A stretch of 4,017 nt of DNA, taken from IMG/VR virus record IMGVR_UViG_2657245521_000003. One strand, given 5' to 3'. Positions 1 through 4,017 of the stretch are shown here, in pieces. Position 1 is the first letter of the stretch. The number at the start of each line of letters is the position of its first letter. The notes under the pieces were generated by a model, which saw nothing but the letters and a program-made list of their open reading frames with translations, ran no database searches and was not told the DNA's origin. Position numbers and translations under genes: made by a program. The DNA is from a virus. Taxonomy: Duplodnaviria > Heunggongvirae > Uroviricota > Caudoviricetes.

Positions 1-204
1 CAGCCATGGTGGGATCTCCGATAAGGTTTTATTGACGGAAATGACCGGAATGATGAGCTGAATACCGGAAGGCAGTACCGGATAAATGGCGACATGTGGA
101 TTGGCTGCGATAATGCGTTCATAAGCCAGTGCATCGCCGTAGTAATGCCAGGCCAGGTTATCCCAGCGTTCGCCATCGGTGGTGATATGTTCAAGGTATC
201 GCAT
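1..204 (-). CDS. gpX-like LysM-type phage tail protein (baseplate 'glue'), 3'-partial: C-terminus lies beyond the window start
   Basis: Minus-strand ATG at 204-202 overlaps the upstream TAA stop (TAATG). The frame is open for 68 codons to position 1: MRYLEHITTDGERWDNLAWHYYGDALAYERIIAANPHVAIYPVLPSGIQLIIPVISVNKTLSEIPPWL. Pattern (W..LAW.YYGD ... AANP ... LPSG ... IP) matches my recollection of the ~67-aa P2 gpX / Phage_tail_X family. A strong Shine-Dalgarno AGGAG sits 6 nt upstream of the ATG (complement of 211-215). Not in the ORF track because it is short and has no stop inside the window. Confidence 0.8.
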   Translation of the reverse strand, partial: MRYLEHITTDGERWDNLAWHYYGDALAYERIIAANPHVAIYPVLPSGIQLIIPVISVNKTLSEIPPWL

Positions 205-1157
205 TACCAGCTCCTCGTAATGGTCGCGGCAGCAAGCTGGCTCACTGCGGGAGTGGTTTGTTGTACCGTTGTTCGTGCCTGATCAACCAACGTTGCGGCT
301 TTATCAAACGTCGCTTCGGCGATGTTGCTGGCAATGTCGTCGAAAAGTGTCTGAGCATGGTCAACCAGCGTACTGGCGTCATTGGCGCAGTCCCGTATAC
401 CTGGCATGTTACCCAGTAAAGCTTTAATCTGAGCCGACAACGCTTTTGGGAGTCCTGCCAGCATTTGCAGATCCATTGGCTGTTTAAACAGGGTTTCGAT
501 GGCGTCGATAGTCTTTTTCAACGACGTAATTATCTTTTCACACTTTTCTTTTAACGCTTTGGCCTCTTTAATCAGTGCTTTCACTTTTGCCACTGTTTTT
601 TTAATATCTTCAATGGTTTGCGCCAGTTCATCGAGCATCTCTTTGGCTTTGCGCATACCTTCTTCAATGGCGTTCAATATCTGATACAACCAGGACTCCA
701 CCTTATTCGGAAAATCGCTCGCCTTTTCCTCGATATTAGGCTCCTGGGTGGTAATTGCCGGGGGCAGCAGTGGGTTTTTCGGATCGCCGGTATACTCCTG
801 GAGCGACATTGTTCCGCTTTGGGCAATGACATTGCCCCAGGGATCGGTGTGCTGGTGAGTGGCGGTTAACTCTGTAATTACAAACCAGCCGCGATAATCT
901 CCGTTGCCAAACACCAGCGCCATTGCTTTGTGAGCAAGCATGGCTTCACGCAGTCGATTCAGCTCTGTTGTGGGTTGGCAAAACTGGCTGTGCAGGGAAA
1001 ATTCCAGCGCCAGCATATCCAGCTTATCGCCAATAAACTGCACGCCGGGTTTGCCTTCTATACGGGCATGTGTGGCGTAATCCACGCCCATTGTGCTTTT
1101 AAAGCCGTCCCAGAATGTGACAACTTTAAATTCAATCTCTCCTAAAACGGCATACAT
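204..1157 (-). CDS. gpU-like tail protein (tube initiator / 'ripcord' position) with Pro-rich linker and long coiled-coil C-terminal extension, 317 aa
   Basis: ORF-track ORF. ATG at 1157-1155 overlaps the tape measure TGA (TGATG). SD-like GGGGGT lies 7 nt upstream (complement of 1165-1170). Residues 1-122 (MYAVLGEIEF...GKPGVQFIG...LNRLREAMLAHKAMALVFGNGDYRGWFVITEL...) match the remembered P2 gpU family pattern (L.L.R....G.AWPL..G.G..G.YVI). Residues ~123-144 are a Pro-rich linker; 145-317 are Lys/Glu-rich heptad-like helix. Position immediately after the tape measure gene agrees with gpU synteny. Confidence 0.8.
   Translation of the reverse strand: MYAVLGEIEFKVVTFWDGFKSTMGVDYATHARIEGKPGVQFIGDKLDMLALEFSLHSQFCQPTTELNRLREAMLAHKAMALVFGNGDYRGWFVITELTATHQHTDPWGNVIAQSGTMSLQEYTGDPKNPLLPPAITTQEPNIEEKASDFPNKVESWLYQILNAIEEGMRKAKEMLDELAQTIEDIKKTVAKVKALIKEAKALKEKCEKIITSLKKTIDAIETLFKQPMDLQMLAGLPKALSAQIKALLGNMPGIRDCANDASTLVDHAQTLFDDIASNIAEATFDKAATLVDQARTTVQQTTPAVSQLAAATITRSW
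211..215 (-). promoter_or_regulatory. Shine-Dalgarno element (AGGAG) for the gpX-like gene, embedded in the gpU-like 3' end
   Basis: Minus-strand AGGAG 6 nt upstream of ATG 204-202; the start codon overlaps the gpU-like TAA stop. Confidence 0.6.
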
Positions 1158-3508
1158 CAGGCATACCCCCGGCGCTGCTGCTGCGCCATTACATCGTTAA
1201 TCATTCTTTCCAGTTCGCGTTTACTCATCGTCAACACGTTCTGAATCTCTTTAGTGGTGTTTTGTCCGTTACCCTGCACGGTAATTTGTGGCGAAAAATT
1301 CACCTGGACTTTTCCCGGGGAACGGGAGGGTAGCGTCGCCGGTTTGGTTACGGATTTACCAGGTAAAGAGGCCGACGCGGGTTTTGCCGATGACGGCGTA
1401 GCCGTTTTGCCGGATGGCGCGAGTTGTTTGCCCACCGGCAGCGTTAAAATCGCACCGGCAACGCCTGGAACAACGGTCGCGGGGGAGACTGATGCGGTAT
1501 TAGCCGTGCCTGTAACAGCCGCAGCCGATGCTTCTGTGCTGATACCCATTGTGGCTTTTAGCCAGTCTGGCATGGCGTTTTTGACCTGATCAATAATGCC
1601 TTTCAGTGCGGGGAAAGCATTCATTATGCCGTCGGCCAGGCTACCCAGTATATTGCTGCCGAACTCGCTAAAACTCGCAGGCATCTCAACACCAAACCAA
1701 TTCATCACATCGGAAAAGGCGCTATAGAACAACTCCAGCGGTGACCAGTCGAGAATCAACCGACAAATTCCTGCAATGCCGCCGTCAAAGGCCGTGGTGA
1801 TACGTTGCCAGATGGTCGAAAAGAACCTGGAGATAGGTTCCCAGTTGCGATAAATCAGATAAGCCGCGCCCGCAATCGCAGTGATGACCAGACCAATGGG
1901 ATTCATCAATAACACCCGGCCTAGCGAGAGAACGGTTCGACCAAACAGTTTCAATGCTCCGATCAGGCCACGACCAAGCAGTTGCGTTAGCCATTTTGCG
2001 CCGCCACCCAATGACTTAACCGCCGATAGCACTTTACTTGCCGCGCCGCCGAGGGCCAGACTTGCCCTGACTTTCAGGAAGATATCGACCAGACGAATAA
2101 ACGGCGAGGCGATGAGGTTCGCGCCCAGCTTTAAAACATTAAGCGCACCGTTAAACAGCCAAATCGCCCCGACGATTTTCGCAATGTTTTGCACCAGCGC
2201 CGGATGTTCGCGTAGCCAGGCACTGAACTGGCGAATAACCGGCGCAAGGCTTTGTGCCAGCTCGCCAATCGCCGGCATAAGCTGCAAGCCAATGCTGAGC
2301 CATAAATCATTTAACGCCAGTTGTAACGCTTTAGTCTGTTCAATGGGCGAGGCCATTTGCGCAGAAAAGTCAGCGTTAATCAGATTCTTGCTGGTAGTTT
2401 GCATGGCAGAGGCTTTTAACTGGCGATATTCCTCCATATTCGCCAGCATAGGTGCCAGGAATTCCACCGTTTGCGCATCGCCGAACATTTCGCCCAGATT
2501 AAATTGCGCCACCATCGATTGCAGCGCAGTGCTGCGAGCAGATAAATCTTCAATCTGCATAGTGCGTTTGAAGGTGTCGAGGATCGCCGGATTCATCTTC
2601 TCAAGCTGCATTTGCACGATATGAGTCATGGCTTCGCTAACACTCATACCGTTTTGCTGATGTTCAAGCAGAGAGCCTTGCAAATCGACGCCCTGGCTGG
2701 CGAACCAGCTATCGGTTTTTTTCGAAAAGGTGGTTTGCAGAAAGTGGTCAAAATTCTCAGCCGCCGCACTGGCGCTGGCCCCGTTTTTCATGGCGATCTG
2801 CATGGCGGCAGTCAGTTCAGTCATACCTTCCAGACCCTGAGCGCCGGTTTTACCTGCAAATTTGTCTATCCACTGCGTTTGCTCGGCAACGGCAGGCCCA
2901 CCGCTTTTGCTAATGCCGTACATCATGTTTTGCGCGGCGTGGAAATTTTCTGGCGCAATATTCAGTCGATCATGGGTTGCGAGCGCGGCATTCGCCCATG
3001 TTTCAGCACTTTCGCGCGTGGCGGTGGCAGCTTTGGCGATCTCCGGCATATAACGGTTGAGATCCTGTATCGACGACAAATTGCCTTCGATCAGCGTTTG
3101 GGCTGCGTTCTGTAAGGTGGTCTGATGCTGGTTAAAATCCATGCTCCAGTCGCGCAGATTAAGGCTGAGCGTCTCGCGGGTTGTATCATTCATCCCACCT
3201 TTGGTCGCCATATTGACCATGTTGTCCTGGAACTCATACGGCAACTTCCAATCGGGGGCTTCAACATTGAATACTTTGCTAAATTGCCCGGCAAATGTGT
3301 GGGTTTTCTCCATCAGATTAGCGCGGCTGCGGCTATTTTCCTCCAGGCGGAGAGCAGAATCGGCAAGTTGCTGCGTTAGTTTGATTACTGTCGCTTGCTG
3401 AGAAGAGAGAGCTAACAAAGTTCTGGCGTTGAGTGAGCCGTAACGGGCTATTGCCTGCGTCAACGTCTCATTACGCGCCTGAAGCTGGGTAATAATATCG
3501 TTGGCCAA
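1157..3508 (-). CDS. phage tail tape measure protein (gpT-like), 783 aa, TTG start
   Basis: Longest ORF in the window (ORF track). Mostly helical Ala/Gln/Leu-rich sequence, with a long Gly/Ala/Leu/Ile-rich hydrophobic block (about aa 400-600) and a Pro/Ser/Thr/Lys-rich low-complexity segment (about aa 655-735), both typical of tape measure proteins. Sits between a chaperone-like ORF and a gpU-like ORF. The only start candidate after the in-frame stop at 3545-3547 is TTG at 3508-3506, with a weak purine-rich SD (AAGAGA) 7 nt upstream. Gene identity is high confidence; the exact start is moderate. Confidence 0.9.
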   Translation of the reverse strand: MANDIITQLQARNETLTQAIARYGSLNARTLLALSSQQATVIKLTQQLADSALRLEENSRSRANLMEKTHTFAGQFSKVFNVEAPDWKLPYEFQDNMVNMATKGGMNDTTRETLSLNLRDWSMDFNQHQTTLQNAAQTLIEGNLSSIQDLNRYMPEIAKAATATRESAETWANAALATHDRLNIAPENFHAAQNMMYGISKSGGPAVAEQTQWIDKFAGKTGAQGLEGMTELTAAMQIAMKNGASASAAAENFDHFLQTTFSKKTDSWFASQGVDLQGSLLEHQQNGMSVSEAMTHIVQMQLEKMNPAILDTFKRTMQIEDLSARSTALQSMVAQFNLGEMFGDAQTVEFLAPMLANMEEYRQLKASAMQTTSKNLINADFSAQMASPIEQTKALQLALNDLWLSIGLQLMPAIGELAQSLAPVIRQFSAWLREHPALVQNIAKIVGAIWLFNGALNVLKLGANLIASPFIRLVDIFLKVRASLALGGAASKVLSAVKSLGGGAKWLTQLLGRGLIGALKLFGRTVLSLGRVLLMNPIGLVITAIAGAAYLIYRNWEPISRFFSTIWQRITTAFDGGIAGICRLILDWSPLELFYSAFSDVMNWFGVEMPASFSEFGSNILGSLADGIMNAFPALKGIIDQVKNAMPDWLKATMGISTEASAAAVTGTANTASVSPATVVPGVAGAILTLPVGKQLAPSGKTATPSSAKPASASLPGKSVTKPATLPSRSPGKVQVNFSPQITVQGNGQNTTKEIQNVLTMSKRELERMINDVMAQQQRRGYA
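1165..1170 (-). promoter_or_regulatory. Shine-Dalgarno-like element (GGGGGT) for the gpU-like gene, embedded in the tape measure 3' end
   Basis: Minus-strand GGGGGT 7 nt upstream of ATG 1157-1155; the start codon overlaps the tape measure stop. Confidence 0.5.
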
Positions 3509-3596
3509 AATTGTTTCTCTTATAGATTGGTGATGGCCCGCTGGTTAGTTTTCTGAAAAATGGGCTGGGAAGAAATAAACCTGGCGGGCTTTAAAG

Positions 3597-3623
3597 GACT
3601 CGCAGACATCAGGTCTGCGAGTC
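3597..3623. repeat. perfect 11-bp inverted repeat with 5-nt loop (predicted stem-loop) at the E'-tape measure junction
   Basis: Plus strand 3597-3607 GACTCGCAGAC, loop 3608-3612 ATCAG, 3613-3623 GTCTGCGAGTC; the arms are exact reverse complements. On the minus-strand mRNA the E' TGA stop (3611-3609) lies in the loop. No U-tract follows on either strand. Confidence 0.7.
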
Positions 3624-3737
3624 ATATTCGATCTTTATTTGAGCGCTGGCTTCATCCAGCCAGTTGCTAAAGTCATCGACGGTAAGGGCGTCTATCTCAC
3701 TGGGCGGAAAGCGAAACCATCTCGCCAGTAACGCCAT
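3609..3737 (-). CDS. E' / GpE-family small tail protein ORF (42 codons from first ATG); probably expressed as a recoded extension of the upstream chaperone rather than independently
   Basis: Minus-strand ORF below the track threshold: ATG 3737-3735 to TGA 3611-3609, MALLARWFRFPPSEIDALTVDDFSNWLDEASAQIKIEYDSQT. The frame is open from 3830 and overlaps the 3' end of the chaperone-like ORF by about 130 nt. The W-F-x-F-PPSE-(I/L) ... W-L-x-E-A stretch resembles my memory of the short 'GpE family phage tail protein' CDSs annotated between the chaperone and tape measure in P2-like prophages. No convincing SD precedes the ATG. Family assignment is from memory, not a search. Confidence 0.5.
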   Translation of the reverse strand: MALLARWFRFPPSEIDALTVDDFSNWLDEASAQIKIEYDSQT

Positions 3738-4017
3738 TGCCTGCCATAGCAGGGGAGGATTCTGTAACCACGGTAAGCATGGATTGAAATCGTTTCTGCA
3801 ATGCCTGGTAATCCAGCAAATCCATTTCAGCTAAATCTTCTGGCACCAGTCCGGTCATTGCCGCCATTAGCGGTTCATCCCACTCTTCTGGCTTTTCGCT
3901 GATCCGGCGCGCGTTGCGCATATCTTTTACTTTCAGGCGACGTAATTGCAGGTAAAGGTGCCGTTTCGCAGCAATAATCCCATCACGCGCGACGAATTGC
4001 TGTCGCGCTTTTTCCCG
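3697..4017 (-). CDS. tail assembly chaperone-like protein (gpE position), 5'-partial: start lies beyond the window end
   Basis: The minus-strand frame is open from the window edge (4017) to TGA at 3699-3697, 106 codons: REKARQQFVARDGIIAAKRHLYLQLRRLKVKDMRNARRISEKPEEWDEPLMAAMTGLVPEDLAEMDLLDYQALQKRFQSMLTVVTESSPAMAGNGVTGEMVSLSAQ. The track's ATG at 3921 is an internal Met: no SD precedes it and the frame continues upstream. Acidic C-terminal half, position directly upstream of E'/tape measure, and an overlapping alternate-frame ORF all fit the G/GT-type chaperone arrangement. Assignment is by synteny and composition only. Confidence 0.55.
   Translation of the reverse strand, partial: REKARQQFVARDGIIAAKRHLYLQLRRLKVKDMRNARRISEKPEEWDEPLMAAMTGLVPEDLAEMDLLDYQALQKRFQSMLTVVTESSPAMAGNGVTGEMVSLSAQ

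What the first reader, a model, noticed from the sequence alone, without database searches (positions are those of the whole stretch)
3597..3623. Perfect 11-bp stem-loop positioned exactly on the E' stop codon, upstream of the tape measure start
GACTCGCAGAC-ATCAG-GTCTGCGAGTC is a perfect inverted repeat. A rough estimate for a perfect 11-bp palindrome with a short loop arising by chance in 4 kb is about 1%. The E' TGA sits in the loop, so the last E' codons (…EYDSQT) are encoded by the stem itself. It is about 90 nt upstream of the weak-SD TTG start of the tape measure gene and is not followed by a U-tract. Possible roles: an RNase III-type processing or stability element uncoupling chaperone and tape measure expression, a structure slowing ribosomes at E' termination, or a dyad-symmetric protein-binding site on the DNA.
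Basis: seen in the sequence. Interest (0 to 1): 0.45.

Follow-up and report, generated by a model that had tools for sequence, protein, structure and literature searches.

The report
Conserved mRNA hairpin ending tail-chaperone gene
A perfect 11-bp stem-loop sits on the stop codon of a phage-tail chaperone gene in an E. coli tail-only (tailocin-like) cluster; selection keeps it as an RNA structure, and it most likely marks where abundant sheath/tube/chaperone message is separated from the scarcer tape-measure and baseplate message, which is an ordinary kind of operon punctuation.

Summary
GACTCGCAGAC-CTGAT-GTCTGCGAGTC (minus strand, 3623-3597) is a perfect 11-bp hairpin. The E' stop TGA (3611-3609) lies in its loop. 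It ends 88 nt before the TTG start of the tape measure gene and has no U tract. Chance gives such a stem in 0.6% of shuffles.

It is conserved at the same place in 26 distinct relatives. Pairing is 97.6%. One pair shows A-U/G-C compensation with a G-U intermediate. All other stem changes are wobble changes. The two stem-core codons show no synonymous variation. G-U pairs make the sense strand more stable in 20 of 22 variants. This points to an mRNA structure, not a DNA operator or an antisense element.

Unrelated hairpins occupy the equivalent spot in Pectobacterium carotovoricin, Lelliottia, PhiKM-type phages and a Pasteurella phage. Some of these carry U tracts.

The spacer downstream is C-rich and G-poor. 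This matches the published signature of protective stem-loops at Rho-dependent 3' ends.

Best reading, with no transcript data: an intra-operon attenuator and 3'-end barrier that uncouples sheath/tube/chaperone expression from T and baseplate expression.

RNase III processing, a frameshift stimulator, a REP element and a DNA dyad site are disfavoured.

It is a new member of a known kind, of modest interest.

The parts
3597..3623 (-). Stem-loop 1. The 5' arm is 3623-3613 (GACUCGCAGAC, which codes Asp-Ser-Gln-Thr). The loop is 3612-3608 (CUGAU). The 3' arm is 3607-3597 (GUCUGCGAGUC, non-coding).
   Evidence: for the structure. for conservation and pairing. for the sense-strand bias. for synonymous-site constraint.
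3609..3611 (-). E' stop codon TGA, inside the loop. Relatives have TAA or TAG here, also in the loop.
3609..3831 (-). E' reading frame (GpE-like C-terminal extension of the tail assembly chaperone). The ATG-bounded ORF is 3609..3737. The frame is open from about 3831. It lies in the +1 (= -2) frame relative to E.
3697..3948 (-). Gene E (tail assembly chaperone, Pfam Phage_TAC_7). Its 5' end is missing from the window, because the window sequence changes origin at about 3949.
3509..3596 (-). Untranslated spacer between the hairpin and the T start. It is C-rich and G-poor (25 C, 12 G) and has a conserved pyrimidine run. It is a candidate Rho loading or cleavage region.
   Evidence: C/G = 2.0, which only 1.6% of same-length windows in the locus reach; alignment.
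3536..3589 (-). Stem 2. GCCCGC(CA)GGUU (3589-3578) pairs with AACC(A)GCGGGC (3546-3536) and encloses the pyrimidine-rich loop. Relatives keep GCCCGGU/ACCGGGC in a shifted register.
   Evidence: present in the MFE folds of E. coli and relatives; helix 2 is 85% paired, and the E. coli register differs.
3506..3522 (-). T ribosome-binding region: weak GAGA Shine-Dalgarno at 3519-3516 and TTG start codon at 3508-3506.
   Evidence: The block ATTTTGGCCAACGA is invariant.
1157..3508 (-). Tape measure gene T (783 aa).

Best explanation
The palindrome is a conserved stem-loop in the tail-operon mRNA (minus strand of the window). It closes the block of highly expressed genes: sheath, tube and chaperone E/E'.

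Proposed mechanism:
- Most ribosomes stop at the E stop codon (3699-3697). About 190 nt of RNA up to the weak TTG start of T is then ribosome-free.
- A fraction of transcripts end or are cut in the C-rich, G-poor spacer after the hairpin. The most likely route is Rho-dependent termination. Weak intrinsic termination or endonuclease cleavage are alternatives.
- 3'->5' exonucleases trim these transcripts back to the stem-loop, which stops them.
- The result is a stable, abundant upstream mRNA and less message for T, U, X, D and the baseplate genes.

Shown: the structure exists, is conserved by pair-preserving change on the sense strand, and is followed by C>G sequence.

Inferred: that transcripts end there and that this sets the expression ratio.
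For: 1. Perfect 11-bp stem, seen in 0.6% of shuffles. It is present in both the MFE and centroid folds.

2. Conservation in 26 distinct homologous junctions from E. coli, Salmonella, Superficieibacter, Dryocola, Phytobacter and IMG/VR contigs. 97.6% of cells are paired. Four pairs are invariant and five vary only by wobble. One pair switches A-U (9 sequences) to G-C (16) with a G-U intermediate (1). Sliding the partner columns drops pairing to 30-48%. RNAalifold recovers the helix.

3. The non-coding sequence just 3' of the stem is scrambled by substitutions and indels, while the 3' arm has no indels.

4. Codons TCG and CAG in the stem core are invariant in 23 distinct coding tails. Nearly every other degenerate codon of the E'-only region shows synonymous variants.

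5. The sense strand is more stable than the antisense strand in 20 of 22 variants (mean -18.3 vs -14.6 kcal/mol), because the variants are G-U on the sense strand.

6. Hairpins of unrelated sequence sit at or just after the E' stop in other lineages:
- Pectobacterium carotovoricin: CGGCCAGCG..CGCUGGCCG followed by UUUUCC.
- Lelliottia: stem overlapping the stop, followed by U6.
- PhiKM, KP12 and Erwinia tracheiphila: ACAGCCGC..GCGGCUGU.
- Pasteurella phage AFS-2018a: 12-bp stem with TAA in the loop and a U-rich tail.
Perfect stems of at least 9 bp occur at only 0.18 per kb in 119.6 kb of these loci, yet 4 of 19 representative loci have one within 100 nt of the E' stop. By my own binomial calculation this has P of about 4e-4.

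7. It is the only strong hairpin inside the tail operon of strain A10.

8. The spacer after the hairpin has C/G of 1.4-2.6, in the top 0.3-8% of windows, across lineages.

9. Dar & Sorek 2018 (PMC6061677) showed in E. coli that Rho-dependent transcripts end at stable stem-loops without U tracts. C>G sequence lies downstream, and the stem-loops protect against PNPase and RNase II.

10. Biological rationale. [quoted passage not shown] By analogy, which is my inference, sheath, tube and chaperone here are needed in far greater numbers than the tape measure protein.
Against: - There are no transcript data of any kind. 3' ends, a coverage step and Rho dependence are all untested.
- Only one truly compensatory pair was found, and it corresponds to essentially one evolutionary event (E. 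coli against the rest).
- By a looser energy measure the hairpin is in the top 5% of 140-nt windows of its locus, not unique.
- Distant relatives (Burkholderiales, Bryobacterales, Conchiformibius and several IMG/VR contigs) have no notable hairpin there.
- P2 manages with E' overlapping T, so the element is not a general requirement.
- Part of the downstream C-richness comes from stem 2, which could hinder Rho loading.
- No promoter for T was found, but one was not excluded.
Confidence: 0.5

Rival explanations
1. Leaky intrinsic (Rho-independent) terminator. The hairpin itself makes RNA polymerase release a fraction of transcripts directly after the stem, with no need for Rho or trimming.
For: - The stem is GC-rich, about -18 to -20 kcal/mol, with a 5-nt loop.
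- The positional counterparts carry real U tracts: Pectobacterium UUUUCCUCCC, Lelliottia UUUUUUCUUU, Pasteurella phage ACUUUAUUUGUU.
- Most type A relatives have UUUCCU once the terminal G-U and A-U pairs fray.
Against: - In this window the tail is CCUUUAAAG, with only 3 U in the first 8 nt, and these do not directly follow the stem.
- The consensus scan does not call it.
- PhiKM-type hairpins also lack U tracts.
- The downstream genes are essential for the same particle, so termination could only be partial.
Confidence: 0.17
2. Structured leader for T translation. Hairpin 1, stem 2 and the pyrimidine-rich loop form a folded 5' region. This region presents a standby or S1-binding platform for the weak TTG start, or insulates it. 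The hairpin serves mainly as a fold boundary.
For: - Stem 2 and the CU-rich loop are conserved next to an invariant TTG start block.
- T has a weak GAGA Shine-Dalgarno sequence and a TTG start.
- RNAalifold hints at a 3-bp contact between the 3' arm of stem 2 and the start-codon region.
Against: - The hairpin ends 88 nt from the start codon and does not touch the ribosome-binding site.
- In other lineages the equivalent hairpin lies at very different distances from T, from 45 to more than 250 nt.
- The stem 2 register is not conserved between E. coli and its relatives.
Confidence: 0.12
3. Relic with no present function. It would be a leftover bidirectional terminator from ancestral BcepMu-like phages that carry a small reverse-oriented membrane-protein gene between E' and T. 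Alternatively it is incidental symmetry that has not yet decayed.
For: - Pasteurella phage AFS-2018a has a 77-aa reverse-strand ORF ending 4 nt from the hairpin (the ORF's stop codon is at L031 1911-1913 and the hairpin at 1878-1907).
- BcepMu has a similar reverse ORF.
- The E. coli cluster lacks that gene but keeps a hairpin.
Against: - All observed stem substitutions in 26 variants preserve pairing, while the flanking spacer is scrambled.
- Synonymous sites in the stem core are frozen.
- Stability stays within -13 to -21 kcal/mol on the sense strand only.
- A neutral relic should accumulate A-C mismatches and indels.
Confidence: 0.12
4. Dyad-symmetric DNA site for a regulator, for example the cluster's Mor-family activator. 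The other option is an RNase III processing site.
For: - In this particular E. coli allele the palindrome is perfect.
- The cluster encodes a Mor-family activator and has a LexA box elsewhere.
Against: - Natural variants break DNA symmetry: 19 of 26 have G-T at pair 1 and 17 of 26 have T-G at pair 4.
- The arm sequence has no other copy in the 16.5-kb cluster beyond chance.
- It lies inside an operon, not at a promoter.
- No usable -10/-35 elements were seen downstream (my reading).
- For RNase III, the stem is 11 bp, whereas canonical substrates have about two helical turns (my own knowledge).
Confidence: 0.04

Closest known systems
[quoted passage not shown]
   Same: A stable stem-loop with the dimensions of a terminator, no U tract, and C>G enrichment immediately downstream. 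It lies in RNA that is largely untranslated (paper read).
   Different: Those elements were mapped at the ends of transcription units. This one is inside an operon whose downstream genes must still be expressed, and its 5' arm is coding. Rho dependence was not tested here.
Intercistronic hairpins that stabilise the upstream segment of polycistronic mRNAs, such as REP in malE-malF and the puf operon hairpins
   Same: A hairpin between a high-abundance gene and low-abundance genes of one operon. The proposed role is a 3'->5' exonuclease barrier that gives differential expression.
   Different: This is not a REP element. It is single-copy in the genome, does not match the REP consensus as I recall it, and overlaps a stop codon.
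Internal operon attenuators such as the rplL-rpoB attenuator (from my own knowledge)
   Same: Partial termination between a highly expressed upstream gene and less expressed downstream genes.
   Different: That attenuator is a canonical intrinsic terminator. This hairpin lacks a U tract.
Phage P2 FI-FII-E-E'-T-U-D operon
   Same: The same gene order of sheath, tube, E, E'-by-frameshift and T. E matches Phage_TAC_7 and E' matches GpE weakly.
   Different: - In P2, E+E' overlaps the T start by 8 nt, with no spacer.
- P2 uses a -1 frameshift, whereas here E' is in the +1/-2 frame.
- This cluster is closer to BcepMu and carotovoricin.
Hairpin between E' and T in Pectobacterium carotovoricin clusters and in Bcepmuvirus-type phages (PhiKM, KP12)
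   Same: The same genes and the same intergenic position. The stems are GC-rich, 9-11 bp, with C-rich sequence after them.
   Different: - The sequences are unrelated.
- These hairpins lie 5-41 nt after the stop rather than on it.
- The Pectobacterium version carries a UUUU tract.
- I found no published description of any of them.

Membership tests
Intrinsic (Rho-independent) terminator | GC-rich stem-loop of about 5-14 bp with a short loop | tested here: met
   The stem is 11 bp with 7 G-C pairs, the loop is 5 nt, and the energy is about -19.6 kcal/mol.
Intrinsic (Rho-independent) terminator | U tract (at least 5 U in 8 nt) directly after the stem | tested here: not met
   The tail is CCUUUAAAG. 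The consensus scan does not call it on either strand.
Intrinsic (Rho-independent) terminator | Factor-independent termination in vitro or in vivo | not testable with these tools
   This needs transcription assays or Term-seq.
Protective stem-loop of a Rho-dependent 3' end (Dar & Sorek 2018) | Stable stem-loop not followed by U-rich sequence | tested here: met
Protective stem-loop of a Rho-dependent 3' end (Dar & Sorek 2018) | C-over-G enrichment downstream (rut-like) | tested here: met
   The 88-nt spacer has 25 C and 12 G. Only 1.6% of same-length windows in the locus reach this C/G ratio. The same trend is seen in 13 of 16 lineage representatives.
Protective stem-loop of a Rho-dependent 3' end (Dar & Sorek 2018) | Steady-state 3' end at the base of the stem; read-through increased by bicyclomycin or in pnp/rnb mutants | not testable with these tools
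   No transcriptome data for a carrier strain were found.
REP/BIME-type dispersed extragenic palindrome | Many copies per genome with a shared consensus | tested here: not met
   The element is found in 195 of 5426 genomes, at one place each (two places in two genomes), always in this cluster.
RNase III processing site | Double-stranded stem of about 20 bp or more | tested here: not met
   The stem is 11 bp and cannot be extended. The length criterion comes from my own knowledge.
Programmed-frameshift stimulatory structure | Structure a few nt downstream of the slippery site | tested here: not met
   The hairpin is at the end of E', 74 nt past the E stop. The shift must occur upstream of the conserved LLARWF motif near 3730.
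Dyad-symmetric operator (DNA) | Both half-sites conserved as a DNA palindrome; further copies at regulated promoters | tested here: not met
   Variants keep only G-U pairing on one strand. There are no extra copies in the cluster.
Rfam-described RNA family | Covariance-model match | tested here: not met
   No hit at E<=1 on the hairpin region in the window, Salmonella or Pectobacterium loci.
Tail assembly chaperone pair E / E+E' (context genes) | E matches Phage_TAC_7. The overlapping frame matches GpE. The genes lie between tube and tape measure. | tested here: met
   - E scores 66 bits against PF10109.
- E' scores 18.1 bits against PF06528, below the 23-bit cut-off. PGAP names it GpE family.
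- The gene order is sheath, tube, E, T.
- The frame is +1/-2, not the -1 of P2.

The most novel reading that the evidence does not exclude
Frameshift-coupled attenuation. The 5' arm of the hairpin is read only by ribosomes that have shifted from E into E'. A ribosome terminating on the loop codon covers both arms.

In that case the rare frameshifting event would transiently abolish the hairpin, and with it termination or 3'-end protection. Synthesis or stability of tape-measure message would then be tied to the production of E+E'. This would be an attenuator read out by a recoding event rather than by amino-acid supply.

The arrangement with the stop codon in the loop recurs, with unrelated sequence, in Pasteurella phage AFS-2018a. 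In Lelliottia the stem starts at the stop codon.
Probability: 0.06. Interest if true: 0.7.

Novelty: new member of a known kind. Interest (0 to 1): 0.3.

Why it matters
Contractile tails and tailocins need hundreds of sheath and tube subunits and many chaperone copies, but only a few tape measure and baseplate proteins, all from one operon. How that ratio is set in P2/Mu-like modules is mostly attributed to translation signals.

A conserved mRNA hairpin exactly at the high/low boundary, with analogues in carotovoricin and Bcepmuvirus phages, would be a simple transcript-level solution. It is also a practical design point for engineered tailocins, because deleting or moving it could change yield.

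This is not surprising in kind. Intercistronic hairpins and Rho-associated protective stem-loops are well known.

Tried and rejected
- Rfam scan of the window, a Salmonella locus and a Pectobacterium locus at E<=1. Nothing hit the hairpin.
- Search for other copies of the arm in the 16.5-kb cluster, to test an operator idea. Only chance-level matches were found.
- Search for a promoter between the hairpin and T, by eye and by comparison with the regions upstream of the holin and gp37-like genes. A TTCTTC[AC]C...ACTAA[AC] resemblance in E. coli is not conserved in Salmonella, so I dropped it.
- Frameshift stimulator. Rejected on distance.
- Slippery site. A CCCC run (TCC TCC CCT) would allow a -2 slip in strain A10, but it is not conserved in Z226-1 or Salmonella, so it was rejected. 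The real shift site remains unidentified.
- Comparison with Mu. Mu's GGGGGCGA site has no counterpart here, and Mu has no comparable hairpin before its tape measure gene.
- Energy-based enrichment test (best 40-nt MFE in 140-nt windows). This was only moderately discriminating and showed no signal in distant, GC-rich relatives.
- Literature searches on carotovoricin, the STM4211-4219 genes, E. coli tailocins, and terminators between tail chaperone and tape measure genes. No description of this element and no transcript maps were found. The ST131 tailocin paper (PMC9205054) describes an ST131-specific prophage tail related to R2-pyocin; I did not establish that it is this cluster.
- Stem 2 could not be scored across all sequences, because E. 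coli uses a shifted register.

Full report
**What is in the window**

All relevant genes are on the minus strand:
- Gene E, a tail assembly chaperone (stop at 3699-3697).
- An overlapping E' frame that ends at 3611-3609.
- The tape measure gene T (TTG at 3508, ending at 1157).
- A 317-aa GpU-domain protein (1157-204).

Pfam supports these assignments:
- E: Phage_TAC_7, 66 bits.
- E' frame: Phage_P2_GpE, 18.1 bits, below the 23-bit cut-off.
- T: PhageMin_Tail.
- The 317-aa protein: Phage_P2_GpU.

**Genomic context**

Positions 1-3951 are 100% identical to a chromosomal cluster in E. coli strain A10 and five other complete genomes. Overall, 191 of 5426 complete genomes hold at least 80% of the window, and 195 hold the hairpin segment.

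That cluster lies between lysC and yjbD. It encodes, in order: a divergently transcribed Mor-family activator, holin, lytic transglycosylase, a membrane protein, a Gp37-family protein, sheath, tube, E, T, GpU-like, X, D, V, W, J, I and fibres. There are no head or replication genes. I therefore read it as a tail-only, tailocin-like element. That reading is inferred from gene content and was not tested.

Homologues occupy the same lysC-flanking site in Salmonella (STM42xx genes). E is 50% identical to the chaperone of a Pectobacterium tail cluster that I take, from organism and gene content, to be carotovoricin. E is about 41% identical to BcepMu gp41.

- The arms 3597-3607 and 3613-3623 are perfectly complementary over 11 nt, with a 5-nt loop.
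- The E' TGA is in the loop, and the last four sense codons form most of the 5' arm.
- The stem ends 88 nt before the TTG of T.
- The stem is part of both the MFE and the centroid fold of the 241-nt transcript.
- No U tract follows it, and the consensus scan does not flag it as a terminator.
- Six of 1000 dinucleotide-preserving shuffles of the window contain a perfect stem this long. The analytic expectation is 0.0067.

**Conservation**

I collected 22 loci from GTDB genomes, 74 from IMG/VR and several annotated phages. In each I located the E' stop through a conserved E' peptide motif.

Twenty-six distinct junctions carry the same ('type A') hairpin at -12..+14 relative to the stop codon. 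They come from E. coli, Salmonella, Superficieibacter, Dryocola, Phytobacter and IMG/VR contigs without host names. The stop codon (TGA, TAA or TAG) is in the loop in all of them, except that one variant with a 2-bp longer stem draws the first stop nucleotide into the stem.

On the alignment:
- The helix is 97.6% paired.
- Four pairs never vary, and five vary on one side only (G-C/G-U or U-A/U-G).
- One pair is A-U in nine sequences, G-C in sixteen and G-U in one.
- Sliding the 3' partners by 1-3 columns drops pairing to 30-48%.

RNAalifold recovers the helix independently.

The covariation amounts to essentially one evolutionary event, so on its own it is weak. Three further observations add weight:
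- The non-coding 3' arm has no indels, and every change in it keeps pairing. The 12 columns directly after it are scrambled.
- Among 23 distinct E'-only coding tails, nearly every degenerate codon shows synonymous variants. The exceptions include TCG and CAG in the stem core, both invariant.
- Because the variants are G-U on the tail-gene strand, they would be A-C on the other strand. The sense strand is more stable in 20 of 22 variants (mean -18.3 vs -14.6 kcal/mol). Sense-strand stability stays within -13 to -21 kcal/mol.

This pattern points to selection on an RNA structure in the tail-operon transcript. It argues against a DNA dyad site or an antisense terminator.

**Analogous hairpins in other lineages**

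Hairpins of unrelated sequence occupy the equivalent position in sister lineages:

| Lineage | Stem | Position relative to E' stop | Tail |
|---|---|---|---|
| Pectobacterium | CGGCCAGCG..CGCTGGCCG | about 41 nt after | TTTTCC |
| Lelliottia | imperfect, long | begins at the stop | T6 |
| Erwinia tracheiphila, PhiKM, KP12 | (AGT)ACAGCCGC..GCGGCTGT(ACT) | 5-14 nt after | no U tract |
| Pasteurella phage AFS-2018a | 12 bp | TAA in the loop | T-rich |

Perfect Watson-Crick stems of at least 9 bp occur at 0.18 per kb in 119.6 kb of these loci. Even so, 4 of 19 representative loci have one within 100 nt of the E' stop. By my own binomial calculation this has P of about 4e-4.

The signal is confined to Enterobacterales and Pasteurellaceae relatives. 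GC-rich distant relatives show nothing special. In P2, E+E' overlaps the T start by 8 nt. Mu has no comparable hairpin.

In strain A10 only three such stems exist in 16.5 kb:
- One between the convergent lysC and Mor genes.
- A LexA box.
- This hairpin, which is the only one inside the tail operon.

**Mechanism**

- The hairpin is single-copy, so it is not a REP-type repeat.
- It matches no Rfam family.
- Its arm is not repeated elsewhere in the cluster.
- It is too far from any possible shift site to stimulate frameshifting.
- It is too short for canonical RNase III cleavage (my own knowledge).

I found no conserved promoter between the hairpin and T. T is therefore probably co-transcribed, and any termination must be partial.

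The 88-nt spacer after the hairpin is C-rich and G-poor (25 C, 12 G). Only 1.6% of same-length windows in the locus reach this ratio, and the same bias recurs in the other lineages. Ribosomes that stop at E, which are the majority, leave about 190 nt untranslated before a weak TTG start.

This is the configuration that Dar & Sorek mapped in E. coli for Rho-dependent transcripts (PMC6061677). They found steady-state 3' ends at stable stem-loops without U tracts, C>G enrichment downstream, and protection of the upstream RNA from PNPase and RNase II.

The boundary makes biological sense. In lambda the chaperone acts in many copies per tape measure, and about 192 tube subunits are built per tail (PMC5009743). 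By analogy, sheath, tube and chaperone here are needed in far greater numbers than T.

I therefore favour an attenuator and 3'-end barrier that partitions the operon's message (confidence 0.5). Rho-dependent termination plus trimming is the leading sub-mechanism in this E. coli allele. Direct, leaky intrinsic termination is the alternative (0.17) and fits better in the lineages with U tracts.

Less likely readings are:
- A structured leader for T translation (0.12). A second conserved stem, 3589-3536, encloses a pyrimidine-rich loop.
- A functionless relic of a bidirectional terminator (0.12). AFS-2018a and BcepMu carry a small reverse-strand membrane-protein ORF between E' and T.
- A DNA or RNase III site (0.04).

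None of the functional steps has been shown. No transcript data for this cluster were found.

**Novelty**

I found no description of this element. In kind, however, it is an ordinary intercistronic hairpin, so I rate it a new member of a known kind.

The most novel reading not excluded is that only frameshifted ribosomes melt the hairpin, coupling tape-measure message to E+E' synthesis. The Pectobacterium and PhiKM hairpins lie outside the footprint of a terminating ribosome, which speaks against this as a general mechanism.

Noticed in passing
window 3949-4017: The last 69 bases of the window do not belong to the tail cluster. They match the thiK/lpoB region of essentially every E. coli genome at 99-100% identity. 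In all carrier genomes the cluster continues with the 5' end of gene E instead. No complete genome contains this junction. The window end is therefore chimeric (an assembly or construction artefact) or reflects a private rearrangement.
   Followed up: partly
window 3609-3831 versus 3697-3948: E' lies in the +1 (equivalently -2) frame relative to E, not the -1 frame of P2. This holds in all enterobacterial relatives. The Pasteurella phage and distant relatives use -1. A -2 shift is known for Mu (PMC5009743). I could not identify a conserved slippery site: a CCCC run in strain A10 is not conserved.
   Followed up: partly
window 3694-3717 (minus strand): A second conserved hairpin, GUUUCGCU-UUCCGCCC-AGUGAGAU (8 bp including G-U pairs; 10-11 bp in Salmonella and Pectobacterium), carries the E stop codon in its 3' arm. 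It lies in the E/E' dual-coding overlap, so the conservation may be due to coding alone.
   Followed up: no
window 3646-3663 (minus strand): A short hairpin CUGGCU-GGAUGA-AGCCAG lies inside E' (codons W-L-D-E-A-S). The Leu codon CTG is invariant in 23 distinct sequences, even though Leu has six codons. The stem recurs as 8 bp from Salmonella to Pectobacterium.
   Followed up: no
L001 3646-3667 (E. coli A10); L003 about 4563-4583 (Salmonella): A near-consensus LexA box (TACTGTATGCACATACAGTA in E. coli, TACTGTATATATATACAGT in Salmonella) lies in the divergent region between the Mor-family activator gene and the holin gene. This suggests that the tail cluster is SOS-induced.
   Followed up: no
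L002 9155-9190; L003 about 6140-6172; absent from L001 5186-5200: A strong terminator-like hairpin follows the lysis cassette and precedes the Gp37-family gene in strain Z226-1 and in Salmonella, but not in strain A10. In Z226-1 it is a 16-bp stem, AAAAATCCCCACCCTT..AAGGGTGGGGATTTTT, flanked by A and T runs. It shows presence/absence variation. A conserved block downstream may be a second promoter.
   Followed up: no
L031 1911-2144 (minus); L029 about 1972-2215 (minus): Pasteurella phage AFS-2018a and BcepMu carry a small reverse-strand ORF for a hydrophobic protein (77 aa in AFS-2018a, roughly 80 aa in BcepMu) between E' and the tape measure gene. It is not annotated in AFS-2018a, and in BcepMu the region is annotated as forward ORFs. 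The hairpin at the E' stop lies between the convergent genes.
   Followed up: partly
L020 (Erwinia tracheiphila) 3001-3393: E and E' are fused in a single 130-codon frame, so no frameshift is needed. This is either a fixed frameshift mutation or a sequencing error in a genome that I recall, without having checked it here, as being rich in pseudogenes.
   Followed up: no
L003 about 2200-2450: The Rfam scan at E<=1 did not report the lysine riboswitch upstream of lysC in the Salmonella locus. The E. coli records annotate one at the equivalent place. I did not investigate this.
   Followed up: no
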